A DNA stretch of 64,000 nucleotides, from contig JBGATG010000007.1 in the NCBI GenBank assembly GCA_044229315.1, positions 4,903 to 68,902 of the forward strand. The letters are read 5' to 3'. The notes beneath the pieces are model-generated. The model searched no databases, was not told where the DNA came from, and saw only the letters and a list, made by a program, of their open reading frames with translations. Source of the stretch: Bacteroidia bacterium. GTDB taxonomy: Bacteria; Bacteroidota; Bacteroidia; B-17B0; Aurantibacillaceae. Made by a program: the position numbers and the translations under genes. Numbering within the stretch: the first letter of the stretch is position 1; every line of letters begins with the position of its first letter. Shown here one piece after another: positions 1 to 19,544 of this stretch.

Positions 1-980
1 ATCGTTAATGAGTGCTTGCCAGCATATATTATTTCTAAGCGACCCTTTAAGTCCCTTAGACCAGTGCCTGTGCCCTCCTTTATTGGTAATTGTTTCTTTT
101 CGTTTTCAATTTCAAATCTAATTGAATCGTTTCTACTCAAGTCAAATATAATATTAATGCTAGACTTTGCTTCGGGTTCAGTTCCGTGCTTAAAGGCATT
201 TTCAACCAAAGAAATAAAAATACCGGGCTCTACCAACTGGTTTTCATTATCGCCATATTGTTCGAAATTAACCTGTACTTCGTTATCAGCATATTTCAGT
301 TGATTTAATTCGATAAAACTTTTAATAAACTCTATTTCCTTGCTAATGGGAACCCTTTCATTCTTGGATTCTTCAATAACATATCGCAATAATTGCGATA
401 ACTTCTGTATGGTTAATGCCAGTTGTGGCGTTTGTTTTTGATCCACCATCGCCAATAAATTGTTTAAAGCATTAAACAAAAAGTGAGGTTGCAGCTGACT
501 TCTCAAAAGGGCCAATTCGGATTGCTTTTTCTCAAGAACAAGCATACTGTTAATCCTGTCATTTTGAATAACCATTCTAATCATAGCGTACATTAGAGTG
601 GCAATGTAGTAAAACAACGTGATCCCAAAACAAAGTACAACAGACACTTTACTTCTGCTTCCGATAGCGCTAAATATCATCCATTCCAGGCCAAAGGCTA
701 GTATAAATGAAATTAAGGTAAGAATAAAAAAACGAAACCTGTTTTGATCGAAAAGTGTTTTTCGCAAAAACAGAAAGCAAACCCAAAACAAAACTGCACA
801 AACGGCAATAATGATCATTAAAGCAGTTTGGACATCTTGATTTCGGGTAATTTTGACGCTTAATTTCCCATTTACTTCAACCTCATCAACGCCCGTTACC
901 GAAAAGCTTTGAACTATAAACCAACCAGTGACTAGCCAAAAGGCAGTCATTCCCAATATTTCAATTAGCCTTTTATTCAT
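1..980 (-). CDS. LytS/YehU-type membrane sensor histidine kinase, 3' end truncated by the window edge
   Basis: Missing from the ORF track because it has no stop in the window. Open from ATG at 980 (MNKRLIEILG...) to the edge. Hydrophobic N-terminal helices, then LLRSQLQPHFLFNALNN, LSQLLRY, LVENAFKHG and GTGTGLK motifs typical of His_kinase (PF06580)/HATPase. Confidence 0.88.
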   Translation of the reverse strand, partial: MNKRLIEILGMTAFWLVTGWFIVQSFSVTGVDEVEVNGKLSVKITRNQDVQTALMIIIAVCAVLFWVCFLFLRKTLFDQNRFRFFILTLISFILAFGLEWMIFSAIGSRSKVSVVLCFGITLFYYIATLMYAMIRMVIQNDRINSMLVLEKKQSELALLRSQLQPHFLFNALNNLLAMVDQKQTPQLALTIQKLSQLLRYVIEESKNERVPISKEIEFIKSFIELNQLKYADNEVQVNFEQYGDNENQLVEPGIFISLVENAFKHGTEPEAKSSINIIFDLSRNDSIRFEIENEKKQLPIKEGTGTGLRDLKGRLEIIYAGKHSLT

Positions 981-984
981 TACT

Positions 985-1051
985 CAAAGCTAGAATATTT
1001 ACATGTAATCTTCTCTTAAATTGGTATAAAACTGCTGAATTATGTTACAAA
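985..1051 (-). promoter_or_regulatory. Putative LytTR-type operator plus -7 box for the kinase gene
   Basis: Minus strand: TTTGTAACA (1051-1043), N12, TTTATACCA (1030-1022), then TAGCTTTG (992-985) matching the Bacteroidota TAnnTTTG element, 4 nt before the ATG. Confidence 0.7.
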
Positions 1052-1058
1052 ATGTGGA

Positions 1059-1123
1059 TTCATAACAAGAAACGGTGGGTTTGTAACATAAATCCTCTAA
1101 CAAGTCTGTTAAAGCTAATTTTG
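1059..1123 (+). promoter_or_regulatory. Putative LytTR-type operator plus -7 box for the first serine hydrolase
   Basis: TTCATAACA (1059-1067), N12, TTTGTAACA (1080-1088), then TAATTTTG (1116-1123). Confidence 0.7.
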
Positions 1124-1149
1124 ATTTACAAATAATTAAGATAGTAGAA

Positions 1150-2652
1150 ATGGTCAATCTAATAAAGTACATCATTTGCGATTTACAATATCAAATAAAA
1201 AAACTCATCTTAGGTATACTACTTTTATTTTCAGCTAATTTGGGACACTCTCAAGGTAAAGAAGCTCAAATTGATTCCATGTTGAGTTTATTTGTGGATC
1301 ACAAACACTTCAATGGTTCTATTCTTGTTGCAGAACATGGATCAGTTGTATATAAAAAAGGCTTTGGCTTCGCAAATATGGAATGGCAAATACCAAATAC
1401 AACGAATACCCGTTTTAAAATTGCTTCATTGGGCAAGCAGTTTACCGCGTTGATGATATTACAGCTTGTTCAGGAAGGAAAACTAGCACTTGAGGGTAAA
1501 ATATGTGATTACATACCGGAATACCCAAAAGAGAGCGGAAAAATAATCACCATTCACCAGTTGCTTACTCACACGTCAGGCATCCCAAACTATCATATTA
1601 TTCCAGATCAGGATGCAAATCAAAACCTTTCATATACACGTGAGGAATACATGGCCCTATTTAGTAGTAAGAAGCTAATGTTTAATCCAGGAACACACTA
1701 TTACTACTCCAACTTAGGGTATTATGTATTGGGATGCATATTGGAAAGGGTTAGTGGAAAATCATATATGCAATTAATAAAAGAAAAAATATTTGAACCT
1801 TCGGGGATGAATAACAGTTGTACCGAAGAAGAGAAATTGGTTATCCCAAATTTGGCTAGCGGTTACGAATTTATCTATTCCGGATATAAACCAGCCAGAC
1901 ATAGAAATTCTTCTCAAGTCTTCGGTGCAGGACATGTAATCACAACAGTGGAAGATTTTTTTAAGTATGACAAGGCATTACATAATAACATTTTACTATC
2001 TGATAAATACCAGAAACTAATAAATACACCTTTTATTAATAATTATGGCTACGGTTGGAATATTGAATATTATCCAAGGTCCAACATTGATTCAGTTACA
2101 TTAGCCAGTCACGATGGGGGCACATACGGATTTTCATCGGTAGCATATCGTTTTATTGAAGATAACAAGCTCATTGTGGCGCTCAGCAATACCTCTCCTT
2201 ATGACATGCACGGTATTGCAAGTTCAATCGGAAGAATCCTTTATGATCGAGAAAAAATATTCCCAAAGAAATCATACGTAGAAAGATTCGCCATTACCCT
2301 AAATGGCTTTGGTGTCGACTCGGCAATTAACCAGTATTATTATCTCAAAAAAAATGAGTCGGAACTATATGAATTGGACGGAGTGGAATTTAACCTTCTT
2401 GGCTATAATTATCTCAGGAACAAACAACTTAAGGAAGCCATGGCAGTCTTTAAAATTAATGTAGAAGCTTTTCCTAATGTTGGAGATCCCTACGACAGCT
2501 TAGCAGAAGCATATATGTTAATGAACGAAAAAGATTTAGCTATTTTGAACTATAATAAGGCCCTCAAACTTGATCCCAATAATTCTAACGCAAAAGTAAT
2601 GCTTAAGAAGCTTCAAGAGAAGGCACCGAAACCACCAACCAAGACCAATTGA
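1150..2652 (+). CDS. Serine hydrolase (AmpC/beta-lactamase-related family) with C-terminal TPR
   Basis: Signal-peptide-like N-terminus, SLGK (SxxK), LLTHTSG, YSN and HDGG motifs; C-terminal TPR (FPNVGDPYDSLAEAY...ALKLDPNN). Confidence 0.88.
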   Translation: MVNLIKYIICDLQYQIKKLILGILLLFSANLGHSQGKEAQIDSMLSLFVDHKHFNGSILVAEHGSVVYKKGFGFANMEWQIPNTTNTRFKIASLGKQFTALMILQLVQEGKLALEGKICDYIPEYPKESGKIITIHQLLTHTSGIPNYHIIPDQDANQNLSYTREEYMALFSSKKLMFNPGTHYYYSNLGYYVLGCILERVSGKSYMQLIKEKIFEPSGMNNSCTEEEKLVIPNLASGYEFIYSGYKPARHRNSSQVFGAGHVITTVEDFFKYDKALHNNILLSDKYQKLINTPFINNYGYGWNIEYYPRSNIDSVTLASHDGGTYGFSSVAYRFIEDNKLIVALSNTSPYDMHGIASSIGRILYDREKIFPKKSYVERFAITLNGFGVDSAINQYYYLKKNESELYELDGVEFNLLGYNYLRNKQLKEAMAVFKINVEAFPNVGDPYDSLAEAYMLMNEKDLAILNYNKALKLDPNNSNAKVMLKKLQEKAPKPPTKTN

Positions 2653-2717
2653 GGTTCAAATCTATCAAAAGTAGCGCCAAATAAATATATGCATTAAAGT
2701 CATATTAACAAGAAATT

Positions 2718-4162
2718 ATGAAGATCATTTTAGTTGCGCTCAATCTTTTATTAATTATTGCACATTCGTGTTCTCAGACATCTTCAGAGCAAAAGCAAGT
2801 ATTCTCTAAGGAAGAACTAAGACTAGACTTCAACATATTTCGTACGTCGTTAGAGGAGGGCCACCCTGCTTTGTACCATTACAAAACAAAGATAACGATG
2901 GATTCAATCTTCAACTCAAACATGGAGTCTATTAAAAGCGTAATGACTGATAGAGAATTTCTAATAATGCTAAGCAAGATTGTAAATCAGATCGGAGATG
3001 GACATTTGCGTGTTATTCTTCCCAAATTCCACAAGGATAAATTGGATATCGGCTCTACCGCTCTCCCGGTTTCACTGATTTACAGAAATAATAATTTATA
3101 TGTAGCTAGAAATCTATCACCTTACCCAGATAACGATTTGATAGGTGCACAAGTAGTTTCAATAAACGACAAAACTGTTTCTGAATTTCTTGTCAAATAT
3201 CTGGAGCTCTTTTCATCAGATGGCTCAAACGTTACTGCTAAATTTAAGCTCTATCGCGATTGCGAATAATTCCTAGATATTATAATATTCTTTATGGCTT
3301 TACGGAACAGTATAAGTTAACGTACATTCCATTTGGTGACGTTACCGCAAAGACCATTAATTTTAAAGGTATAACATACGATGAGTATTTTGAAGTGCTA
3401 TATAAGCGATATCCACCGCGCCCGGCATTGGAATTCATCCTGAAAAAGGATAGCAATTACGCTTATATGAAAATTAAGACCTTTGATAAAGATCAGTTAA
3501 AAGAAGAGAAGGCAAACTATGAGAAGTTTCTGCAAAATTCTTTCACTGCACTTCAAAAGAATAATATTGAAAATTTAGTACTTGATCTACGCGGAAATGG
3601 AGGTGGGACAGATGAATATGGCAAAATTCTCTTTTCCTATTTCACTGAGAAGCCATTTGAATATTACTCATCGATAACCATGAACAAAGAAAGTTTTGAT
3701 TTTTTCAAGTTCACAAGTAATCCCAACATTAAAGCACCAAACGGTATGTTAAAACCTAACACCCAAGGCACGTTTGATAATGTTAAACATCCAAATATTG
3801 GAAGGCAAAAACCTGGTGCACCTATTTTTAAAGGTAAAATTTACGTTCTTATCGACGGGGGTTGTTTTTCTACCACAAGTGAATTTTTATCTGTTCTTCA
3901 TTATAATACCCAGGCTATTTTCGTAGGCGAGGAAAGTGGCGGAGGATATTATGGCAATTGCTCTGGTCCAACGCCTGAGTTTGTTTTGCCTAATACGAAA
4001 GTCAGCGTGGCTATTCCTTTAATGAGATACAATATGGCAGTCGGCGGATACTTGCCGCATGACCGAGGAATAATACCAAACTACATAAAGGAATCCACAA
4101 TACTTGACATCATTGAAAATAACGATGTAGAGTTCAATTTTACAAAAAGTTTGATAAAATAA
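2718..4162 (+). pseudogene. S41-family peptidase (lipoprotein-like) split by a -1 frameshift near 3248-3268
   Basis: ORF 2718-3269 carries the S41 N-terminus (DFNIFRTSLEEGHPALY, GDGHL). ORF 3260-4162 carries LDLRGNGGG, GGCFST and VGEESGGG. They overlap by 10 bp in adjacent frames and join to about 480 aa. True pseudogene versus sequencing indel cannot be distinguished here. Confidence 0.75.
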
Positions 4163-4199
4163 ACTGAGCTAATCTATGATTCTTTTTAGATCCTGCCTG

Positions 4200-4265
4200 T
4201 TCATACCAATTCTATACGGTTTCATACCATTCTTCAGATCATCAGTTTTCTATATTTTAATTTTG
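4200..4265 (+). promoter_or_regulatory. Putative LytTR-type operator plus -7 box for the second transcription unit
   Basis: Perfect direct repeat TTCATACCA (4200-4208, 4221-4229) with a 12-bp spacer, then TAATTTTG (4258-4265) before the GTG at 4271. Confidence 0.72.
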
Positions 4266-4270
4266 CTTTA

Positions 4271-5395
4271 GTGAAATCTCAACTGGCATATTATATTATA
4301 CTACCAATGTACACTTTACTTTCCTGCCAGCAGGAAAGTAACAACAGTCATCAAGGGAAGTCGAATGAATCTGAGAATAAAATACTTGCATTTGTTGCTA
4401 GTCTTGATTCAACACTAAAGTCACATTATTTTAACGGAAGTGTACTCGTTCGAAAGGATGGCAAAACAATAATGAAGAGGAGTTATGGACTCTCAAATGT
4501 TGAGTTAAAAACACCTTTCACCGATTCCACATTTGCATGTATGGGTTCAATAACCAAGCACTTCACAACCATATTGGCCCTAAGATATCTGGATGAAGGA
4601 AAACTTAAATTAACAGACAGCTTAGGCAAGTATTTTCAAAATGTGCCTGATGACAAGAAAGGCATCACAATTCACCACTTGCTTTCTCATAGTTCCGGTT
4701 TGCCCGACTTTTTTGAGAATGATGGTGGAGATTACCTAAATATCGACAAACAAACCTTCCTTAAAAAATTACTCGGGGTAAGATTAAATTATGATCCGGG
4801 TGAAACAGCGGTCTACTCAAACATAGGTATGACGCTTATGGCCGCCATAATAGAAGAAGTATCCGGAGTTGAATTTGAGAGATGCATTACCAATGAACTT
4901 TTCAAGAACAACGGAATTGCGATCTCGTACAGCGATACCACATCGATGCAACAAATTGCTCAGGCATATAGAAACGGCAAACATTGGGGTACACTATTTG
5001 ATCAATACAAAATTAACTCGGGAGGACCGTTTTGGAATCTAATTGGAAATGGTGGCTTATATTGCTCAATTAACGAAATAGAGAAATGGTCAAACTTGAT
5101 TTGGCACAATAAAATTATTTCCCGAGAAACACTAAACTTGATGCATCAGCCAAAGGTAAGCGAACATGGCTCAAATAACGAATCATTCTTTGGTTATGGG
5201 TGTTTGATTGAACCAATTTCTTCGGGTGACACCATCATTAGCAATAATGGCAGTAATCAGGCTTATTACGCAACTTATAAGCGAATACCTACAAAGCAAA
5301 TAGAATTTTTCCTGATCACAAATCATTTCAGTAAGGGAATGATGGCAACTTATGAAGAACTGGCTTCAACTGCAGTAATGAGTTTAACAAAATGA
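4271..5395 (+). CDS. Serine hydrolase (beta-lactamase-related family), lipoprotein
   Basis: Lipobox-like LLSC, SITK (SxxK), LLSHSSG and YSN motifs. Confidence 0.87.
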   Translation: MKSQLAYYIILPMYTLLSCQQESNNSHQGKSNESENKILAFVASLDSTLKSHYFNGSVLVRKDGKTIMKRSYGLSNVELKTPFTDSTFACMGSITKHFTTILALRYLDEGKLKLTDSLGKYFQNVPDDKKGITIHHLLSHSSGLPDFFENDGGDYLNIDKQTFLKKLLGVRLNYDPGETAVYSNIGMTLMAAIIEEVSGVEFERCITNELFKNNGIAISYSDTTSMQQIAQAYRNGKHWGTLFDQYKINSGGPFWNLIGNGGLYCSINEIEKWSNLIWHNKIISRETLNLMHQPKVSEHGSNNESFFGYGCLIEPISSGDTIISNNGSNQAYYATYKRIPTKQIEFFLITNHFSKGMMATYEELASTAVMSLTK

Positions 5396-6810
5396 GATCT
5401 CATATCATTTTAATTTTGATACTAGTTGTTTTAAATCCGTTGAATTCCAGTGGTCAACTCGGCGATTCTATCAGCTCCAAAATTGACTCGTTACTTCATC
5501 AATTAGAAAAAGATGATGTCTTTTCGGGTAGTGTTCTTATTGGATATAATGGCTCCATCGTGTATTCAAAACATCTAGGGTATTCAACTAAAGAAAAACA
5601 CCTAAGGAATACTTCAAACACAAAATTTTACATCGGTTCGATTACAAAACTGTATACTAAAATTTTGATTTATCAACTCGTTGAAGAGAAAAAAATTAAG
5701 TTAAATGACAAGGTAGCTAAATACCTCAGCGGATTCAATAAAAACGTAGCTAATCATGTTACAGTGCAACACCTTCTAAATCATACCTCGGGCCTTGGTC
5801 AATACTACGATCATCCCGAATTTGAAAGCAGAAAAAAGAACATCTCATCAATAGATGACATTCTCTACTTTGTTAAAACGGAAGAGTTAATGTTTAAACC
5901 CGGTACTGAAGTAGAATATTCAAATTCGGGTTATGTTGTACTAGGTGCTATTATTGAAAAGGTGACCAATTTAACTTATGGAGAGGCTTTAAAGTCATAT
6001 ATCTTTCAAAAGATCGACGCTCGTAATTCATCGTATTCTATAATTAATACAGCAATGGATTCAACCGCCCAGGGTTACCTCACCAACCTATTAACAGGGG
6101 CTACAAATGCAGATCTTTTTCTCACCGGTGCTTCAGATGGTGGTATCATCACCACCGCTTACGACTTATTCAAACTCGACTCCGCCATCTTCCAAAGTGA
6201 TATTGTTCTAAATGAGAAAAGTAGGCTTCAGATTTTTAACCAGCGGGGAAACAATGAGCTAATTGCAACTTCTAAAAATGTGAAATTTGCAATTGCCGGA
6301 GGCGATCCAGGTTTAAGCACAATATACTCACGCAATATAGTGAAAGGATATACAATCATTGTGTTAAGCAACTATGATGAACCCGTTTCCGCTGAGGTTC
6401 TAAGGTCAGTCGTTAATATACTAAACGGAAATGCCCCTTCCAAGGTCATAGGTTCCATTGCTCGCCATTTAAGGAAATACATGAACGAACACGGAGGTGC
6501 AAGTTTTAAAACCTATTTGGATCAGAATATAGATGATCAACTCGTTGCGTTAAGGCAAAATGATATGCCTTTACTCTACTTAGGGAAATACCTAATCGAA
6601 AATGAAAGGCTATTTGATGCGCAATGTTTGTACGAAATATACACGAAGCACTTTCCAAAAATTGTTATTGCTTGGGAAGAACTGGCTTTGGTGTATACGC
6701 AACTCAACAAAACAAGTGATGCTAACTTCATTTATTTAAAACTTCAGGAACGTTTTCCTGAAAACGAAGAATACCGTCAAAATATAATAAAACCAAAAAC
6801 CAAAAATTAA
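5392..6810 (+). CDS. Serine hydrolase (beta-lactamase-related family) with C-terminal TPR-like region
   Basis: ATGA overlap with the previous gene, signal peptide, SITK, LLNHTSG, YSN; helical TPR-like tail. Confidence 0.87.
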   Translation: MRSHIILILILVVLNPLNSSGQLGDSISSKIDSLLHQLEKDDVFSGSVLIGYNGSIVYSKHLGYSTKEKHLRNTSNTKFYIGSITKLYTKILIYQLVEEKKIKLNDKVAKYLSGFNKNVANHVTVQHLLNHTSGLGQYYDHPEFESRKKNISSIDDILYFVKTEELMFKPGTEVEYSNSGYVVLGAIIEKVTNLTYGEALKSYIFQKIDARNSSYSIINTAMDSTAQGYLTNLLTGATNADLFLTGASDGGIITTAYDLFKLDSAIFQSDIVLNEKSRLQIFNQRGNNELIATSKNVKFAIAGGDPGLSTIYSRNIVKGYTIIVLSNYDEPVSAEVLRSVVNILNGNAPSKVIGSIARHLRKYMNEHGGASFKTYLDQNIDDQLVALRQNDMPLLYLGKYLIENERLFDAQCLYEIYTKHFPKIVIAWEELALVYTQLNKTSDANFIYLKLQERFPENEEYRQNIIKPKTKN

Positions 6811-6834
6811 ACCAAAAATTAAACCAAAAATTAT
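6792..6834 (+). repeat. 12-bp tandem repeat ACCAAAAATTAA x3 plus a partial copy
   Basis: Copies at 6799-6810, 6811-6822 and 6823-6834 (the last ends AT, the start of the next ATG); partial ACCAAAA at 6792-6798. Confidence 0.85.
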
Positions 6835-7264
6835 GAAAACAAAATTCATTAAAAGTCTTATTCTAGCACTGCTAGTTTTCAATTCGAACTCAATTTTTAG
6901 TCAAACTAAGTTCGTTACTCAAGAGGCGAATTTCATTTATGACTATGTTAAGTCAAAAGGTTCGGCCACTTTTGATAAAGAATTTGAGAAAACCTTTAAA
7001 GAAAAAGGCTTTGTTATTGATGATGACATGATATTCATTAACGTAGCAGAGGCTTTAAAAGAGGAGAAACTTGCTAATGAAGCAATTTCGGTATTTAAGG
7101 TTGGCACTAAGCATTTCCCTAAGATTATCATGTTGTGGAACGGCCTTGGCGAAGCTTATCTCATAAATCAAAATAAAAAGGACGCTAAGATATGCTTTGA
7201 AAAAGTACTTAAACTTAAACCGGGTAACCCCCGTGCACAAGAAGGGTTGAAAAAATGCGAGTAA
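6833..7264 (+). CDS. Exported tetratricopeptide-repeat protein
   Basis: Signal peptide followed by TPR (LWNGLGEAY...FEKVLKLKPGNPRA). Confidence 0.8.
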   Translation: MKTKFIKSLILALLVFNSNSIFSQTKFVTQEANFIYDYVKSKGSATFDKEFEKTFKEKGFVIDDDMIFINVAEALKEEKLANEAISVFKVGTKHFPKIIMLWNGLGEAYLINQNKKDAKICFEKVLKLKPGNPRAQEGLKKCE

Positions 7265-7326
7265 GCGTTCGATTATTTATTACGGCGATTATTTTTAGTT
7301 CTAAAGTAATTCACAGAGTAGTAAGA

Positions 7327-9498
7327 ATGAGTTTGTCGCTTGGACTTTGTTTGATATATTTATTAGCCTCCTGCAATTCTAATTCAAACGACAAAGATTC
7401 ACTATGCAGTAGCGGCAATCCTGGTGATCTTATGTTAAATTCAACTACACCTTCTGGATTAGTTTTTGAAACATTTTATCTGAAGCTCAGTACTGGCATA
7501 TTATGCACTTTGCTTTTTAGTTCAATAACATTAGTTCTCAAAGAAAATGCTTGGAAAAAGTTGCTTGCATTACCAATTTACGGGGCTTCAATGTTCGCTA
7601 ATTTATTCGTAAACAATACGCCAATTAACTCCTTCGGCAATATAGGCAAGTTTCATTATGAACTACCAAAAACTGAATGGAGGAAGGATTTAGAATATTT
7701 AAAAGTAGAGTTGCCTAAGCATCATCCTAATCTTTTTATGTATATGGAGAAGGATGAATTTTTGAGTGCAATTCAGCACCTGGAGGAAAGATTAAGCTTA
7801 CTTGATGATCAGCAAATAACTTTTGAAATATGTCGAATTGTATCTATGATCAAAGATGGCCACACGCAAATTGTATCAATACCGTTTGGAACTCCTCCTT
7901 TTGTCAACAGTCAATTATATCCGTTACGAGTATACTTCTTTGCAGATGGATTGTATGTGATAGATGGTGGACGAGATCATAAGGACTTGGTAGGGAAGAG
8001 AATCGATAAAATTGACAAAACACCAATCAAAGAGGTTGTAGAACGAATTAGTCAGTATGCACCTGGCGAAAACTCTTTCTACAAGATGCAATGGTCTTTC
8101 CCATACCTACTCAATGCCTCTTTGCTAGAGCATTTAAAAATTGCTAACAGTGTTAACGAGATTCAACTTACTTTAAGCGACGTATCAGGAGTTCAAGTAT
8201 CAAAAACTTTAAAGCCTTTTCATTCCACTCTTTATCTTAAATGGTATGAAGAAACAAAGGACTTGGATGATTTGTCAAGAAAAGGCAAACTAGAGAAAAA
8301 CTATTGGTATAAATATAATGAAGCAACCAACGATCTATACTTTCAGATCAATCAGGTTAAAGATCAACCTGGCGAAAAATCTATAAAGGAATTCGCATCG
8401 GAACTTACACAAATTATTAAAGAACGCGAAATTAATAAGCTAATTATCGATGCAAGAAATTGTAATGGTGGAGACAATACTTTAGTACACTACTTAATTG
8501 ATGCTATATCCGCCTCTGAAAAAGTAAATAAGTATGGTAAATTGTTTACCCTAATTGGAAGAAATACATTTTCAGGCGGCGTCTCATTTGTTTCCGCAAT
8601 TGAAAGAAATACTCCAGTGATCTTTGTTGGAGAACCTTCAGGAAGCGGGCCAAATCAATGTGGAGATGTTCAAACATTTACATTGCCGCATTCTCAACTT
8701 CGTTTAAAAGTATCTTCCAAATTTCATCAGCAGAGCCACTATAAAGACAATAGATTACAAATCACTCCCCATATCCGGGTAAATTACGACTACAATTCTT
8801 GGAAGAATAACATTGATCCTGCTATACTGACTGTCCTGTCATTCACCGACCAAATTCAAAAGCGTGACACTTTAAAGCTACCTTTTTACAAACCATATCT
8901 TGGTACATATAACTTTGATACGGAAAAGATCTTAAAAATTAGCAGTAGTAATTCTAGATTAGTATTTACAATTAGCGATTATCAAGTTTTCTCAAACGGT
9001 GATCTCTTCAGTTTAGGAACTGATTCTTTTATTGGTAACAACGGAAGTGTTAAGTTGAGATTCACTAATTGCAAAGATAGTTTCTTTCAGAGTATAATTA
9101 TCAATTATGGTAATGCGGTTGACACACTTCATAGACTACCAACTGACTTCCAATTACCATATCAATTATTGGCGCTGGCGAGGTTAAATGAAGTTTCTAA
9201 GATTTATCGCAAAGCAATTTCATATGGTATTACATTGCCTGCTTCAACTGAAGAACTAATAAATTATTACGCGTACAAATTTATGGTGGATAAAAATATC
9301 GATAGAGCTATGCTTCTATTCAGACTTAATACTGAACTCTTTCCTTTCTCGGCAAATGCTTGGGACAGGCTAGCCGAAGCCTGTCTAACAAACGGCCTTA
9401 AGGAGGAAGCAAAACTAAATTACCAGAAGGCATTGAGCATTGATCCGGATTATGGTAAAGCTATGCATGCGAAGTCAATAATTGAAAAAATAAAATAG
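7327..9498 (+). CDS. S41-family peptidase with N-terminal hydrophobic segments and C-terminal TPR
   Basis: WRKDLEYLKVELPKHHPNLF, IKDGHT, IIDARNCNGGD, GRNTFSG and VGEPSGS motifs; TPR tail. Start moved from 7255 to the ATG at 7327 (LLASC lipobox-like); start uncertain. Confidence 0.82.
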   Translation: MSLSLGLCLIYLLASCNSNSNDKDSLCSSGNPGDLMLNSTTPSGLVFETFYLKLSTGILCTLLFSSITLVLKENAWKKLLALPIYGASMFANLFVNNTPINSFGNIGKFHYELPKTEWRKDLEYLKVELPKHHPNLFMYMEKDEFLSAIQHLEERLSLLDDQQITFEICRIVSMIKDGHTQIVSIPFGTPPFVNSQLYPLRVYFFADGLYVIDGGRDHKDLVGKRIDKIDKTPIKEVVERISQYAPGENSFYKMQWSFPYLLNASLLEHLKIANSVNEIQLTLSDVSGVQVSKTLKPFHSTLYLKWYEETKDLDDLSRKGKLEKNYWYKYNEATNDLYFQINQVKDQPGEKSIKEFASELTQIIKEREINKLIIDARNCNGGDNTLVHYLIDAISASEKVNKYGKLFTLIGRNTFSGGVSFVSAIERNTPVIFVGEPSGSGPNQCGDVQTFTLPHSQLRLKVSSKFHQQSHYKDNRLQITPHIRVNYDYNSWKNNIDPAILTVLSFTDQIQKRDTLKLPFYKPYLGTYNFDTEKILKISSSNSRLVFTISDYQVFSNGDLFSLGTDSFIGNNGSVKLRFTNCKDSFFQSIIINYGNAVDTLHRLPTDFQLPYQLLALARLNEVSKIYRKAISYGITLPASTEELINYYAYKFMVDKNIDRAMLLFRLNTELFPFSANAWDRLAEACLTNGLKEEAKLNYQKALSIDPDYGKAMHAKSIIEKIK

Positions 9499-9551
9499 TT
9501 CGATAATTAAATTAGAGATCTGAATCCATAATACTTTAAAAGAAATAAACT

Positions 9552-10754
9552 ATGAAATACACAAAAACAATCTTGGTAGGTGCATTTTTACTCTTTGTAA
9601 AGCTCATCAATGCACAATGGATAACCCAGACTAGCGGCACAACCGAAACCCTTTTGGGCATTTCTGGTGTCAGCCCATACAATGCTTATGCTGTCGGAAC
9701 AAACGGCACGATTAAGCACACCAACAACGCCGGTACAACTTGGGTCAGTCAAGCCAGTGGGACAACAAGTTTTTTAAGAGATATATTCTTCTCTGATTCG
9801 CTCAATGGGTGCGTTGTTGGCCAAATGGGTTTAGTATTAACTACAACCAATACGGGAACAACATGGTCGAATAATGCAAGCGGAACAATTGAACACCTTG
9901 TGCATGTTCATTTTGCAAATTCCTCTATCGGTATGGCAGGTGGTCAGAACGGTGTACTCATAAAAACCAATAATTCTGGCGTAAACTGGTCTACAATGAC
10001 AAGTGGCGTTAGTGTTGAGCTTGCGGGAATTTACATGTGCAACAGCAATATAGCCTATGCTGTTGGATTCAATGGAACAATATTGAAAACAATAAATGGT
10101 GGTATTACCTGGACACCACAAACAAGTGGTACCTCCAACGATTTAAGAAGCGTGGCATTTGTTGGATTAGATACTGGTGTTGTGGTGGGCATTAATGGTA
10201 CAATTCTCAGAACAACGGATGGTGGAACAAATTGGCAAACCTTAACAAGTGGCGTGTCATCAAATCTTTATGGAATTGAGATGATTAGCACTTTCACTAA
10301 TAATGCAGCCGGTACCGGAAAAATACTTAGAAGTATCAATAGCGGAACAACATGGCCGCAACAAGCCATTGGTACTTATACAAATGATCTGTACGATATT
10401 GATTTTGTCAATAATACTGTTGGTTGGGCTGTTGGTCAAATTGGTAAGATATTTTATACGAGTAATGGAGGAATTGCAACTCGTATTAACGATGAAGAGG
10501 CTATGGATAATATCCTTAAGGTTTATCCTAATCCCACCGGTGGGATTGTTTATATAGTCGAAGAAAAGGAATGTTTGCCAACTTCTTATGAAGTGACCGA
10601 TTGCACAGGTACACTATTCTATAAAGGGACACTTCTTGCAGATCAGCATTGCATAGATATCTGTTCAATACCTCAAGGAATATATTTACTAAAAGTTCTT
10701 TATAAGTATAGGCCCCCAAGAACCTGTAAGGTGATAGTTCAACAGAAAGATTGA
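9552..10754 (+). CDS. YCF48/BNR-like beta-propeller protein with T9SS C-terminal sorting domain
   Basis: Repeated VG.NGTILKT.NGG.TW..QTSG units; C-terminal VYPNP...GIYLLKV. Confidence 0.85.
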   Translation: MKYTKTILVGAFLLFVKLINAQWITQTSGTTETLLGISGVSPYNAYAVGTNGTIKHTNNAGTTWVSQASGTTSFLRDIFFSDSLNGCVVGQMGLVLTTTNTGTTWSNNASGTIEHLVHVHFANSSIGMAGGQNGVLIKTNNSGVNWSTMTSGVSVELAGIYMCNSNIAYAVGFNGTILKTINGGITWTPQTSGTSNDLRSVAFVGLDTGVVVGINGTILRTTDGGTNWQTLTSGVSSNLYGIEMISTFTNNAAGTGKILRSINSGTTWPQQAIGTYTNDLYDIDFVNNTVGWAVGQIGKIFYTSNGGIATRINDEEAMDNILKVYPNPTGGIVYIVEEKECLPTSYEVTDCTGTLFYKGTLLADQHCIDICSIPQGIYLLKVLYKYRPPRTCKVIVQQKD

Positions 10755-10978
10755 TACAACCCAATAATTATAGCTTTTTTTGAATAAAGTTTTGAACTTT
10801 ATTGGAATTCCTTAGATTTTAAGCCTCGCTACCGCCCAGGCATACCTGGCAAAGTCTTCCAAGGCTAATAGGTCTTTCTCGAGTCGGTTCAGGATTGCCA
10901 TTCTTTGTGCTATATTTGTGTCTGAGGGGCACAAAGATCGGGTAAATGTCGTCGCAAATGATGATATTTTGCCTACCA

Positions 10979-11006
10979 AAAAAACCTCAGGATACTGGGG
11001 TTTTTT
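10979..11006. terminator. Bidirectional intrinsic-terminator-like hairpin
   Basis: AAAAAACCTCAG-GATA-CTGGGGTTTTTT. Confidence 0.65.
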
Positions 11007-11012
11007 CATTTC

Positions 11013-11288
11013 ATGGAATTTGTTGTCTACATAATGTATTCAAATAGTAGTAAGCGTAATTATACTGGTTACACGTCTAATCTGATAGAGCGATTTCGTT
11101 CACATAATATTTACGGAAAAGATAGTACAAGACTTTACAGACCTTGGACAGTAGTGCATGTTGAATTTTTTCGAACCAAAGAAGAGGCGATGAAACGAGA
11201 AAAGTACTTTAAGGCCGGGCGTGGATCAATTTTGAAGAATTCAATTGTCTCTGAATTCATGGCTCGTTGGGCTCATACCCTTCCCTAA
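11013..11288 (+). CDS. Small stand-alone GIY-YIG nuclease family protein
   Basis: VYIMYS...YTGYT...RFRSHN...EAMKREK (GIY-YIG, Arg and Glu motifs). The C-terminal ARWAHT is translated tRNA sequence. Confidence 0.85.
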   Translation: MEFVVYIMYSNSSKRNYTGYTSNLIERFRSHNIYGKDSTRLYRPWTVVHVEFFRTKEEAMKREKYFKAGRGSILKNSIVSEFMARWAHTLP

Positions 11289-11326
11289 AGGGAAGGGCGG
11301 AAGTTCGAATCTTCCTCCCGCTACCA
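11262..11326 (+). pseudogene. 3' fragment of tRNA-fMet (CAT) with an inserted hairpin
   Basis: GCTCGTTGGG-CTCATA-CCC (GGG/CCC initiator anticodon stem), insert TTCCCTAAAGGGAA, perfect T-arm GGAAG-TTCGAAT-CTTCC, acceptor 3' strand TCCCGCT-A-CCA. No D-arm or 5' acceptor strand upstream. Confidence 0.8.
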
Positions 11327-11354
11327 AAAAAACCACCTGAAATGGTGGTTTTTT
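11327..11354 (+). terminator. Intrinsic terminator after the tRNA fragment
   Basis: AAAAAACCACC-TGAAAT-GGTGGTTTTTT. Confidence 0.7.
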
Positions 11355-18815: not shown

Positions 18816-19544
18816 GATTAAATCGAACTGCTCTAAGTGTCACCCTGAGCGAAGTCGAAGGGTGCAGCGTTAAGTTGTGTAATTTTTAAACATCGCACAC
18901 AGGTTTCGACTCCGCTCAACCTGACACGCCAAACAGAAGGCTGATCTCGCTCAAGGGCAATGCCGTGATTAAATCGAACTGCTATGCGTGTCACCCTGAG
19001 CGGAGTCGAAGGGTGCGGTAGTAAGTCTGGGGATAGCGCTGGTATCATTCATGCACTTTGAAAATTCTTTTAATTTATCCCACTCACCATTAATAAGCGC
19101 TTCCTTTTTTCTTCTCGTCCAGCCTTTAATACGTTTTTCCCATTCGATCGCTTTTAAATATTCAGTGAACATTTCACAATACACCAACTTTACGGGTTTT
19201 CGGTGACAAGTATAAGAATCGGTTACCGTTCCGCTGTTATGCTGCGCGACGCGCAATTCGATATTATTTGTTAAACCTGTATAATAAGAATCGTCCGAAC
19301 ATTTTAAAATGTATACATATAATACTTTTGATCGCGATAAATAAGTTTCAGAAAAAGCCATGATACAAAACTACATTTGGGTTGAAAAAATCCTTGCTAC
19401 AAATTGTAGTAATTTTAGATTTCGCCACAGGCTTCGACTTCGCTCAGCCTGACACGGCCGACAGAAGGCTGATTACGTCAAAATAAGATACGTAAAGTAA
19501 AACCCTGTTGCTAGGCGTGTCACCCTGAGCGGAGTAGAAGGGTG
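18816..19544. mobile_element. REP-like palindrome array enclosing a GIY-YIG nuclease gene (REPtron-like)
   Basis: TGTCACCCTGAGCG(G/A)AGT(C/A)GAAGGGTG-type copies at 18838-18864(+), 18904-18926(-), 18989-19015(+), 19432-19454(-) and 19518-19544(+), with longer flanking direct repeats. Confidence 0.7.
18969..19361 (-). CDS. Small stand-alone GIY-YIG nuclease family protein
   Basis: YVYILKCSDDSYYTGLTNNIELRVAQHNSG...AIEWEKRIKGWTRRKKEALI; TAGTTTTG -7-like box at 19373-19366. Confidence 0.9.
   Translation of the reverse strand: MAFSETYLSRSKVLYVYILKCSDDSYYTGLTNNIELRVAQHNSGTVTDSYTCHRKPVKLVYCEMFTEYLKAIEWEKRIKGWTRRKKEALINGEWDKLKEFSKCMNDTSAIPRLTTAPFDSAQGDTHSSSI

What the first reader, a model, noticed from the sequence alone, without database searches (positions are those of the whole stretch)
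10973..11354. GIY-YIG gene fused into a tRNA-fMet 3' half and bracketed by a 14-bp direct repeat: candidate tRNA-targeting mini mobile element
Seen: CTACCAAAAAAACC occurs at 10973-10986 and 11321-11334, each starting a terminator hairpin, and encloses a 348-bp unit. The nuclease ORF reads through the tRNA anticodon arm (ARWAHT) and stops inside a perfect hairpin, CCCTTCCCTAAAGGGAAGGG, that interrupts the anticodon-variable region. The T-arm and CCA end are intact. Established: GIY-YIG domains serve as homing endonucleases. Inference: a minimal element that inserts at tRNA 3' ends without integrase or transposase, with the inserted hairpin possibly protecting its own copy from recutting.
Basis: partly seen in the sequence, partly recalled or inferred. 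Interest (0 to 1): 0.72.

Follow-up and report, generated by a model that had tools for sequence, protein, structure and literature searches.

The report
Mini nuclease cassette split from tRNA
A tiny nuclease gene that normally sits just behind the initiator tRNA gene, with a hairpin-tagged partial copy of that tRNA, stands alone here, most likely because a genomic island of about 30 kb was inserted between the tRNA and the cassette; this cassette type is widespread, I found no published description, and in this lineage it is inherited vertically rather than jumping.

Summary
A 91-aa GIY-YIG ORF (11013-11288) reads into a copy of the 3' 55 nt of the genome's own initiator tRNA-Met. It stops in the loop of a 20-nt hairpin that replaces the 3' half of the anticodon arm. 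CTACCAAAAAAACC occurs only twice in the 4-Mb genome, once on each side of the unit.

It is one member of a recurrent layout: tRNA, terminator, small GIY-YIG ORF, hairpin-substituted tRNA 3' copy, terminator. In relatives, 23 of 29 homologue loci hold an intact tRNA within 460 nt.

The mobile-element reading is only partly supported.
- Synonymous divergence of the cassette tracks that of the neighbouring era gene.
- The ORF is under purifying selection.
- No plasmid carries a homologue, and phages give one weak partial hit.
- The tRNA-derived part stays identical to each host's own tRNA.

This copy lacks an adjacent tRNA probably because an island with a large serine recombinase integrated at the tRNA-fMet 3' end (core CTACCA). 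Three relatives show the same arrangement on single contigs, and one of them was predicted before it was found.

The closest published system is the Ssn family of hairpin-directed single-strand DNA nucleases. By analogy, the hairpin is the enzyme's site rather than a shield. Ssn membership could not be tested.

The parts
1..10972 (.). Probable right-hand part of a genomic island of about 30 kb, whose left end is at tRNA-fMet on contig C7. Genes include LytS/LytTR pairs, beta-lactamase-family hydrolases, S41-like peptidases and T9SS-secreted proteins.
   Evidence: - GC is 0.34-0.36 over C2:1-14000, against a genome value of 0.392 +/- 0.021.
- The other end, in C7, carries a large serine recombinase beside tRNA-fMet.
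- The immediate upstream gene has no orthologue in 60 relatives.
- Contiguity of the C2 head and the C7 head is inferred, not shown.
10860..10972 (+). Island-side arm of the attR junction, including the hairpin CTTTGTGC...GCACAAAG (10902-10937). It ends where homology to the tRNA begins.
   Evidence: - It is homologous to the left arm of the tRNA-less copy in L037 and resembles that of G027/L009.
- Flavobacterium tRNA-less copies carry the related arm GGTTAGATATTTG....
- The hairpin folds at -7.9 kcal/mol, z -2.8.
10973..10978 (+). CTACCA: the last 6 nt of tRNA-fMet. It is the sequence shared by both island junctions (att core).
   Evidence: - attL on C7 reads ...TCCCG|CTACCA|CGAGAGACTCCTCAG....
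- attR in the window reads ...TTTTGC|CTACCA|AAAAAACCTCAG....
- The break falls at the same point in L037 and G027.
10979..11006 (+). Terminator 1 (AAAAAACCTCAG-GATA-CTGGGGTTTTTT). In relatives it is the terminator of the upstream tRNA gene. The ORF's ATG follows 6 nt later.
   Evidence: - It folds as a strong hairpin with a T-run.
- Its stem CCTCAG/CTGGGG is the same as in the terminator after tRNA-fMet on C7 and close to the one after tRNA-fMet copy 1 of G047.
- It holds the same position in G013, L037 and others.
11013..11288 (+). A 91-aa single-domain GIY-YIG nuclease gene. The last 9 codons are read from the tRNA copy and the hairpin arm.
   Evidence: - Pfam PF01541, E 4e-15.
- AlphaFold2 model pLDDT 91. 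The nearest solved folds are UPF0213 BH0048 and Slx1.
- Y6, Y17 and R27 are invariant and E63 is at least 90% conserved in 61 relatives.
- dN/dS is about 0.07 or lower.
11262..11277 (+). Copy of tRNA-fMet positions 21-36: the D-stem 3' strand, the anticodon-stem 5' strand, and the loop through CAT-A.
   Evidence: - It matches the tRNA 16/16.
- Third-codon-position identity among relatives is 0.95 here, against 0.45 in the ORF body.
11278..11297 (+). Hairpin CCCTTCCC-TAAA-GGGAAGGG, which replaces the 3' half of the anticodon arm and the variable loop. The stop codon lies in its loop. It is the candidate recognition site of the nuclease.
   Evidence: - The stem sequence is conserved in all Sphingobacteriia-type copies.
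- All 27 distinct Met/fMet copies share the layout ...TCATA | palindrome | C + T stem.
- There is no second copy of this hairpin in a tRNA-fragment setting; the other CCCTTCC...GGAAGGG stems in the genome (C1:1584806, C2:53874, C5:39343) look like ordinary terminators.
11298..11326 (+). Copy of tRNA-fMet positions 47-75: C, T arm, acceptor 3' strand, ACCA.
   Evidence: - It is 29/29 identical to this genome's own tRNA-fMet.
- In every relative the fragment carries that host's own T-stem variant.
11327..11354 (+). Terminator 2 (AAAAAACCACC-TGAAAT-GGTGGTTTTTT).
   Evidence: It is supported by the terminator scan and by folding.

Best explanation
The unit is a resident copy of a widespread cassette. 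The usual layout is: tRNA gene, its terminator, a minimal GIY-YIG nuclease gene of about 85-91 aa, then a 5'-truncated copy of the same tRNA in which a GC-rich palindrome replaces part of the anticodon arm, then a second terminator.

**Shown**
- This architecture recurs at tRNA-fMet and at other tRNA genes.
- The protein is under purifying selection.
- The hairpin and its 5' flank are constrained at the DNA level.
- The T-arm part of the fragment always equals the host's own tRNA, which indicates concerted evolution.
- Where it could be measured, the cassette co-diverges with the chromosome.

**Inferred by analogy with Ssn nucleases (PMC11893778)**
- The protein binds its neighbouring hairpin when that DNA is single-stranded.
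- It nicks a few nucleotides 5' of the hairpin, inside the tRNA-derived stretch.
- Repair of such nicks from the nearby tRNA gene would keep the two copies identical and could produce the tandem arrays.
- Expression is probably by read-through of the tRNA terminator, because the ATG follows the T-run by 6 nt.

**Why this copy has no tRNA (well supported)**
An island of about 30 kb with a large serine recombinase integrated at the 3' end of tRNA-fMet, with crossover inside CTACCA. The tRNA and recombinase are now on contig C7, and the cassette lies at the far junction (attR) in this window. So the 14-bp repeat is the att core plus terminator on the left, and the fragment's 3' end plus terminator on the right.
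For: **Architecture**
- 17 of 29 relatives' loci have an intact same-strand tRNA at most 160 nt upstream. Two more have one about 400-450 nt upstream, and four have one directly downstream.
- The types include Met, fMet, Val, Phe, Arg and Ser. My estimate of the chance expectation for a tRNA within 1 kb is about 1%.
- Close homologues (62-79% identity) repeat the exact layout, including the RWAHTLP tail and the stop codon in the hairpin loop.

**Selection**
- In the ORF body pS is 0.70-1.0 (saturated) and pN is 0.12-0.21.
- Third-position identity is 0.95 in the tail against 0.45 in the body.

**Vertical descent**
- dS of the cassette against era is 0.36/0.36, 0.93/0.71, 0.99/1.06 and 1.89/2.24 in Flavobacterium pairs.
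- There are no plasmid hits and one weak partial phage hit.

**Concerted evolution**
- The fragment's T stem is GGAAG, GGGTG, GGATG, GTTGG or GTCCG, matching each host's tRNA.

**Hairpin as a site**
- The flanks TCATA| and |C are the same in 27 of 27 copies.
- SsnA has a comparable size and catalytic positions: 94 aa with Y6, Y17 and E64, against 91 aa with Y6, Y17 and E63 here.

**Island**
- The recombinase at C7 12819-14459 overlaps the tRNA's 3' end.
- Homologous recombinases sit beside units in G027 (42-kb island) and in G103, which is Flavobacterium sp. C3NV (37.6 kb).
- In G186 I predicted a tRNA-fMet plus recombinase upstream of a tRNA-less copy, and found them 23.7 kb away.
- Both contig ends are low in GC.
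- No other CTACCA-plus-terminator site exists in C7 1-14418.
Against: - No biochemical data exist for this protein.
- The published degenerate Ssn-related motif finds nothing in the window and only 2 sites in the genome.
- Membership of the Ssn clade (cd10448) could not be tested.
- The hairpin occurs in a tRNA-fragment setting only once in this genome, unlike the hundreds of NTS copies in Neisseria.
- Adjacency of contigs C2 and C7 is not proven. The in-frame join of their end genes is shared with two other contig ends.
- The cassette is patchy, in 8 of 61 and 14 of 121 species, and some copies are pseudogenes. That would also fit a decaying selfish element.
- The nick-and-convert step is inference.
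Confidence: 0.55

Rival explanations
1. This is an active tRNA-targeting mini mobile element. The GIY-YIG enzyme cuts tRNA-fMet gene DNA. The unit is copied into the break, duplicating the tRNA 3' half. The hairpin protects the resident copy from recutting.
For: - The tRNA association is tight and partial tRNA duplications occur at many tRNA types.
- There are tandem arrays of identical units.
- The distribution among species is patchy.
- Some copies carry frameshifts or stop codons.
- No recombinase lies inside the unit.
Against: - The cassette's dS equals that of the adjacent era gene.
- There is one copy per genome apart from tandem or island-split copies.
- There are no plasmid copies and one weak partial phage hit.
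- This tRNA-less copy is explained by an island, not by transposition.
- The intact tRNA next to resident cassettes would remain cleavable.
- A 91-aa domain without a DNA-binding module is unlikely to read a double-stranded target. The characterised small relatives, the Ssn nucleases, do not cut double-stranded DNA.
Confidence: 0.17
2. The function is at the RNA level. The tRNA-derived tail is a tRNA-like 3' end of the nuclease mRNA, serving as a processing, stability or termination signal, and the gene is an ordinary co-transcribed housekeeping nuclease.
For: - The ORF starts 6 nt after a tRNA terminator, so co-transcription with the tRNA is likely.
- The tail is conserved at the nucleotide level.
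- The cassette is inherited vertically under purifying selection.
Against: - The fragment lacks the 5' acceptor strand and the D arm.
- Four relatives (L008, L037, L038, L040) carry a second hairpin inside the T loop, which would destroy a T-arm RNA.
- Exact identity to the host's tRNA, rather than mere stem maintenance, points to DNA-level conversion.
- SsnA does not bind RNA.
Confidence: 0.1
3. This is a scar of integrase-mediated integration, similar to an integrase-less cis-mobilisable element. On this view the tRNA-derived repeats are attL/attR remnants of a decayed island, and the GIY-YIG gene is surviving cargo.
For: - tRNA 3' halves as direct repeats are the hallmark of islands that integrate at tRNA genes (established knowledge).
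- Recombinase islands do use this very site.
Against: - The only cargo is always the same small nuclease, at many different tRNA types.
- The ORF is under purifying selection.
- Conserved palindromes replace the tRNA loops.
- Serine recombinases leave only a short core, not a 55-nt repeat.
Confidence: 0.05

Closest known systems
Ssn family of site-specific single-stranded DNA nucleases with their hairpin repeats (SsnA/NTS of Neisseria meningitidis; CDD cd10448; Chenal et al., Nat Commun 2025, PMC11893778)
   Same: - Both are single-domain GIY-YIG proteins of about 90 aa. SsnA has 94 aa with catalytic Y6, Y17 and E64. The protein here has 91 aa with Y6, Y17 and E63.
- In both, the gene sits next to a conserved hairpin of 20-30 nt.
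- In both, the sequence, not just the structure, of the hairpin is conserved.
- A C directly follows the palindrome here, and that C is the base most important for SsnA binding.
- The authors themselves note that the gene-plus-hairpin layout looks like a small mobile element.
   Different: - The published degenerate motif does not match here.
- There is one hairpin in a tRNA-fragment setting rather than hundreds of dispersed repeats.
- The hairpin is embedded in a partial tRNA copy. The paper never mentions tRNA (0 occurrences).
- Clade membership and activity were not tested.
Bacterial Slx1-like / UPF0213 minimal GIY-YIG proteins (BH0048, PDB 1zg2; EF2693, PDB 1ywl) and eukaryotic Slx1
   Same: - They are the best structural and sequence matches among solved structures. 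Foldseek gives E 2e-4 to 1zg2, and Slx1 aligns with TM 0.60-0.64 and rmsd 2.1-2.9 A. phmmer gives E 8e-4 to 1ywl.
- Both are minimal domains without an extra DNA-binding module.
   Different: - Identity is only 25-34%.
- The paper I checked on these proteins (PMC1564403) reports no tRNA or hairpin association.
- Slx1 works with Slx4 on branched DNA.
Free-standing GIY-YIG homing endonuclease SegB in the tRNA gene cluster of phage T4 (PMC2330249)
   Same: A GIY-YIG gene lies among or next to tRNA genes, and it is proposed to act on tRNA-gene DNA.
   Different: - From my own knowledge, SegB is larger and has a DNA-binding region, whereas this protein is a bare 91-aa domain.
- SegB cuts double-stranded DNA and spreads in phage co-infection.
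- The cassette here is chromosomal and vertically inherited.
- The family is absent from phages apart from one weak partial hit.
Free-standing endonuclease ORFs in fungal mitochondria that insert at the 3' end of a host gene and bring a replacement 3' end, leaving the old end as a downstream fragment (recalled from memory, e.g. Allomyces atp6; not checked here)
   Same: The geometry is the same: an intact gene, then the endonuclease ORF, then a displaced partial 3' copy of the gene.
   Different: - The target there is a protein-coding gene and the system is organellar.
- There is no palindrome replacing part of the displaced copy.
- In that system the displaced copy decays, whereas here it stays identical to the gene.
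Genomic islands that integrate at tRNA gene 3' ends by large serine recombinases
   Same: This accounts for the flanking context. A recombinase with Resolvase, Recombinase and Zn-ribbon domains converges on the tRNA. A short core is shared at both junctions. The cargo is low in GC and includes a C5 methylase.
   Different: This is not the cassette itself. It only explains why the cassette is detached from its tRNA in this genome.

Membership tests
GIY-YIG nuclease superfamily (Pfam PF01541) | Significant match to the GIY-YIG domain profile | tested here: met
   E 4.1e-15, 56.3 bits against a cut-off of 22.6, residues 3-68.
GIY-YIG nuclease superfamily (Pfam PF01541) | Catalytic residues present: the two motif tyrosines, the arginine and the metal-binding glutamate | tested here: met
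   Y6, Y17 and R27 are invariant and E63 is at least 90% conserved in 61 aligned relatives.
GIY-YIG nuclease superfamily (Pfam PF01541) | GIY-YIG alpha/beta fold | tested here: met
   AlphaFold2 pLDDT 91.2, with a three-stranded sheet plus helices. The top Foldseek hits are UPF0213 BH0048 and the Slx1 nuclease domains.
Ssn family (cd10448) | Single-domain GIY-YIG protein shorter than 150 aa | tested here: met
   91 aa with one domain.
Ssn family (cd10448) | Assignment to CDD cd10448, or blastp E<1e-10 with at least 75% coverage to N. meningitidis SsnA (CAX49033.1) | not testable with these tools
   Neither the CDD models nor the SsnA sequence is available here, and the paper's supplements are not held. 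The NCBIfam library gives no hit.
Ssn family (cd10448) | Ssn-related motif (published degenerate pattern HGTCWY..YYVSBRH..WNVSBRG..RNCYNB) within 500 bp on both sides of the gene | tested here: not met
   0 matches in the window and 2 in the whole genome.
Ssn family (cd10448) | A sequence-conserved hairpin next to the gene, with a conserved 5' flank and a C after the palindrome | tested here: met
   27 of 27 distinct Met/fMet copies show ...TCATA | palindrome | C. The stem sequence is conserved across saturated synonymous divergence.
Ssn family (cd10448) | Cleavage of single-stranded DNA only, a few nt 5' of the hairpin | not testable with these tools
   This needs purified protein.
Homing endonuclease gene (free-standing GIY-YIG type) | Additional DNA-binding domain giving a long double-stranded target | tested here: not met
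   The protein is 91 aa, all of it nuclease domain. Some Flavobacterium relatives have only 84 aa.
Homing endonuclease gene (free-standing GIY-YIG type) | Horizontal spread: element divergence decoupled from host divergence | tested here: not met
   The cassette's dS tracks era's dS in 10 Flavobacterium pairs and 3 Sphingobacteriaceae pairs.
Insertion sequence or transposon with target-site duplication | Short direct repeat created from target DNA at both ends, plus a transposase | tested here: not met
   The 14-bp repeat is the tRNA 3' end plus the start of a terminator. In relatives it extends to 55-75 nt of tRNA or to a whole unit. There is no transposase.
tRNA-integrating island with large serine recombinase (context of this copy) | Recombinase with Resolvase, Recombinase and Zn-ribbon domains at one junction | tested here: met
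   C7 12819-14459 carries all three domains and its C-terminus overlaps the tRNA-fMet 3' end.
tRNA-integrating island with large serine recombinase (context of this copy) | Both junctions on one molecule, sharing a short core | tested here: inconclusive
   The core CTACCA is present at both junctions, but the junctions lie on two contigs. The join is compatible but not unique. The feature is met on single contigs in G027, G103 and G186.

The most novel reading that the evidence does not exclude
The nuclease-hairpin pair may be a domesticated system that works on an essential, single-copy tRNA gene. By nicking single-stranded DNA beside its hairpin, it would drive continual gene conversion between the tRNA gene and its hairpin-tagged spare copy. 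That would keep a repair template, or a second landing pad for islands that target tRNA genes, right next to the gene. In two of the four islands seen here, the recombinase used the spare copy instead of the tRNA.
Probability: 0.12. Interest if true: 0.85.

Novelty: new variant of a known kind. Interest (0 to 1): 0.58.

Why it matters
Small GIY-YIG genes are among the commonest unexplained genes in Bacteroidota. The only biochemically characterised small relatives, the Ssn nucleases, were described in 2025 without any link to tRNA genes.

The arrangement seen here is a nuclease gene wedged behind a tRNA, with a partial tRNA copy whose loop is replaced by the presumed recognition hairpin. It recurs at many tRNA types, and I did not find it in the searchable literature.

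This window adds three testable points:
1. The cassette can be a long-term, vertically inherited resident under purifying selection, which argues against a simple jumping-gene picture.
2. Its tRNA-derived part evolves in concert with the real tRNA gene.
3. Copies without a tRNA arise when serine-recombinase islands integrate at the tRNA or at its spare copy.

It also supplies a defined pair, a 91-aa protein and a 20-nt hairpin, for testing a new single-strand DNA cleavage specificity.

Tried and rejected
- **Exact-protein look-up.** It found no other contig, so no strain-level presence/absence comparison was possible.
- **Synteny of the window's flanks.** The upstream gene has no orthologue in 60 relatives. 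Synteny around tRNA-fMet is scrambled, so no precise empty site could be aligned.
- **Published Ssn-related motif.** It gave no match.
- **Multi-copy hairpin.** I rejected this idea. The other CCCTTCC...GGAAGGG stems in the genome sit between A- and T-runs and look like ordinary terminators.
- **Upstream 38 nt as a decayed tRNA 3' half.** By eye, about 18 of 38 positions match in register including the CTACCA anchor, and about 12 of 32 without it. I judge this not significant, and the attR reading replaces it.
- **A promoter in the left arm.** There are TAnnTTTG-like boxes, but this remains unresolved because a terminator lies between them and the ATG.
- **In-frame join of the C2 and C7 contig ends.** This first looked like proof of adjacency. 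It is not unique, because the C2 head also joins in frame with the C4 head and the C3 tail. Only GC content favours C7.
- **G186.** It first seemed to contradict the island model, because the tRNA-less copy lies upstream of the tRNA-linked units. Fetching more sequence revealed a second tRNA-fMet with a recombinase.
- **G027's 42-kb contig as a circular plasmid or phage.** Rejected. It joins contig C41 at tRNA-fMet and carries chromosomal sensor-kinase genes.
Full report
**1.
- The window is C2:4903-68902 of a 4.01-Mb, 7-contig Bacteroidota genome. Its relatives are labelled Sphingobacteriaceae.
- CTACCAAAAAAACC lies at 10973-10986 and 11321-11334. It occurs nowhere else on either strand of the genome.
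- Each copy runs into a strong hairpin followed by a T-run.
- Between the two copies lies one ORF, 11013-11288, of 91 aa. It is a GIY-YIG domain (Pfam E 4e-15).
- ARAGORN finds no tRNA in the window.
- The stretch 11262-11326 is nevertheless a copy of the 3' 55 nt of the genome's own initiator-type tRNA-Met, whose gene lies on another contig (C7 c[14419,14493]). Positions 21-36 match 16/16 and positions 42-75 match 33/34. The 20-nt hairpin CCCTTCCC-TAAA-GGGAAGGG stands in place of ACCCAAAGGT.
- The ORF reads through this copy (ARWAHTLP) and stops at a TAA in the hairpin loop.

**2. It is one member of a recurrent architecture.**
- Close homologues (62-79% identity) in related genomes show the same layout: intact tRNA-fMet, its terminator, an ATG 4-10 nt after the T-run, the ORF, the tRNA copy with the same hairpin and an in-loop stop codon, the T arm and CCA, and a second terminator.
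- Of 29 loci from relatives, 17 have an intact same-strand tRNA at most 160 nt upstream. Two have one about 400-450 nt upstream, as second units of tandem arrays. Four have one directly downstream. Three of the remaining six hold tRNA fragments.
- More distant members sit at elongator Met, Val, Phe, Arg and Ser tRNAs. In these copies the anticodon arm or the T loop is replaced by palindromes such as TCCGCCGCGGCGGA or TCCCGCC-TAAA-GGCGGGA.
- In all 27 distinct Met/fMet copies the layout is ...TCATA | palindrome | C + T stem.
- About 55 protein clusters in public data end in RWAHTLP.
- Some Flavobacterium relatives stop just before the tRNA part and have 84 aa. In the structure model the last three residues of the tail have low confidence. 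So the tail is a by-product of the overlap rather than a needed part of the fold.

**3. What kind of constraint acts on it.**
- Among five full-length copies the ORF body has saturated synonymous differences (pS 0.70-1.0) but pN of only 0.12-0.21. Where dS can be estimated, dN/dS is about 0.07-0.08, so purifying selection is strong.
- The last eight codons have third-position identity of 0.95, against 0.45 in the body. That shows constraint on the DNA itself.
- The T-arm part of the fragment always carries the T-stem variant of that host's own tRNA-fMet: GGAAG here, GGGTG in G013, GGATG in L040, GTCCG in L038 and GTTGG in G027, G049 and G018.
- The fragment cannot work as a tRNA, and the hosts are separated by saturated dS. 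This identity therefore requires concerted evolution (gene conversion) or repeated re-creation.
- Four relatives (L008, L037, L038, L040) carry a second hairpin inside the fragment's T loop. This argues against an RNA role for the T arm.

**4. Mobile or resident?**
- I compared the cassette with era, the conserved gene just upstream of tRNA-fMet.
- In Flavobacterium pairs, dS of the cassette against era is 0.36/0.36, 0.93/0.71, 0.99/1.06, 1.26/1.55 and 1.89/2.24. Cassette dN/dS is about 0.06-0.19, against 0.02-0.03 for era.
- The cassette has therefore co-diverged with the chromosome. There is no sign of recent horizontal transfer and none of deep paralogy.
- The family is absent from 72,556 plasmids. 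Among 50,697 phage records it gives one weak partial hit.
- The own genome has a single copy.
- Distribution is patchy: 8 of 61 species in the host genus and 14 of 121 Flavobacterium species. Nearly all genomes have tRNA-fMet.
- Frameshifted or stop-containing copies occur, and identical tandem copies occur.
- Overall this looks like an old insertion that persists and is often lost, with local amplification, rather than an element that currently jumps.

**5. Why this copy has no tRNA.**
- In G000, tRNA-fMet on C7 is followed at once by a converging 547-aa large serine recombinase with Resolvase, Recombinase and Zn-ribbon domains. Its C-terminus overlaps the tRNA's 3' end. A C5 DNA methylase and other low-GC genes follow.
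- The junction on C7 reads ...TCCCG|CTACCA|CGAGAGACTCCTCAG.... The window reads ...TTTTGC|CTACCA|AAAAAACCTCAG....
- Joining the tRNA side of the first to the right side of the second recreates exactly the tRNA-terminator-ORF junction seen in G013.
- Homologous recombinases sit beside cassettes in two relatives. In G027 a 42-kb island lies between the fragment of a tRNA-linked unit and a tRNA-less unit with the same break at CTACC. In Flavobacterium sp. C3NV the two are 37.6 kb apart.
- As a test, I predicted that a tRNA-less unit in the complete chromosome G186 should have a tRNA-fMet plus recombinase upstream. Fetching 60 kb found both, 23.7 kb away.
- The left arms of tRNA-less copies resemble each other (GGTTrGATATTTG...), as expected if they are island ends.
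- In G000 the two junctions lie on different contigs.
  - The C2 head and the C7 head are both low in GC (0.33-0.36, against 0.392 +/- 0.021), unlike the other candidate ends.
  - Their truncated end genes join in frame, but that also holds for two other ends.
  - C7 1-14418 has no alternative CTACCA-plus-terminator site.
- I put the island explanation at about 0.85, and the specific C2-C7 join at about 0.65.
- It follows that the left copy of the 14-bp repeat is the att core plus the tRNA's terminator. It is not a target-site duplication.

**6. How it most likely works.**
- The protein is a bare GIY-YIG domain (pLDDT 91). Its nearest solved relatives are the minimal UPF0213 proteins and the Slx1 nuclease domains.
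- The closest published system is the Ssn family (PMC11893778). Its features are:
  - GIY-YIG proteins of about 94 aa, flanked by sequence-conserved hairpins;
  - binding to the hairpin only when it is single-stranded DNA, with a cut a few nt 5' of it;
  - no activity on double-stranded DNA or RNA;
  - a C after the palindrome that is critical for binding.
- The cassette here shares the protein size, the catalytic positions (Y6, Y17, E63), an adjacent sequence-conserved hairpin and the following C.
- It does not match the published degenerate motif, and clade membership could not be tested. That paper never mentions tRNA.
- By analogy, I infer that the hairpin is the enzyme's site. Nicks would fall in the tRNA-derived stretch 5' of the hairpin, and their repair from the tRNA gene would explain the concerted evolution and the tandem arrays. 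These steps are inference.

**7. Comparison and novelty.**
- In four literature searches, which turned up the Ssn paper, and in the 2006 GIY-YIG survey I read directly (PMC1564403), I found no description of tRNA-nested GIY-YIG-hairpin cassettes. A fifth search (YhbQ plus GIY-YIG) returned no papers.
- Earlier notes of this scan report the same layout in many genomes and link it to Ssn. I treated them as leads.
- My own tests agree with the architecture. They add the dS evidence for vertical descent, the concerted evolution, and the island explanation for tRNA-less copies.
- I class this as a new variant of a known kind: an Ssn-like nuclease-hairpin module in a tRNA-nested setting.

Noticed in passing
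window 18969-19361 (-), with repeats at about 18837, 18988 and 19517 (C2:23739, 23890, 24419): A second, different GIY-YIG gene (130 aa, Pfam E 1.7e-17) is flanked on both sides by a 28-nt hairpin repeat, GTGTCACCCTGAGCGGAGTCGAAGGGTG. The repeat occurs 34 times in the genome. The C-terminal tail of the ORF reads through one copy. This looks like a more classical Ssn-type gene with dispersed repeats.
   Followed up: partly
own genome C6:177680-177730 (-), outside the window: An isolated tRNA-Val 3' fragment (ACAAGCAGGGGGTCACTG|TCCGCCGCGGCGGA|CGAACCCAGTAGTTCCCAC plus terminator) carries the palindrome in its T loop. The Pfam scan found no GIY-YIG domain near it. It lies about 19 kb from the real tRNA-Val and is probably a relic of a lost cassette. 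Three further copies of this palindrome family (two TCCGCCGCGGCGGA, one TCCGCCGTGGCGGA) lie at C1:789801, C1:1501291 and C6:92706.
   Followed up: partly
own genome C5:24464-26109 and C6:822656-824205: Two further paralogues of the large serine recombinase (30-32% identity) converge on tRNA-Ser(TGA) and tRNA-Pro(TGG). This genome therefore seems to hold three tRNA-anchored islands of the same recombinase family.
   Followed up: no
own genome C6:790655-793982 and 824132-824733: There are two dense clusters of 17 and 6 tRNA genes with unusually short tRNAs, including second copies of many types. They look like mobile-element or phage-type tRNA arrays.
   Followed up: no
L076 (G047:C47:797-871 and 9510-9584): Two identical tRNA-fMet genes share an identical 70-nt upstream flank and bracket 8.6 kb. 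The first is followed by a terminator very like terminator 1 of the window's cassette, but by no ORF.
   Followed up: no
own genome C5:121402-121620 (-): A third small GIY-YIG gene, of the same subfamily as the window's second one, is interrupted by an in-frame TAG.
   Followed up: no
L037, L038, L040 and L008 (fragments of relatives): Secondary hairpins are inserted in the T loop of the tRNA fragment. In L037, L038 and L040 they resemble the primary one (CCTTC...GAAGG); L008 carries a different palindrome (TGCCGATAGCTATCGGCA). This suggests that hairpins get copied into loop positions.
   Followed up: partly
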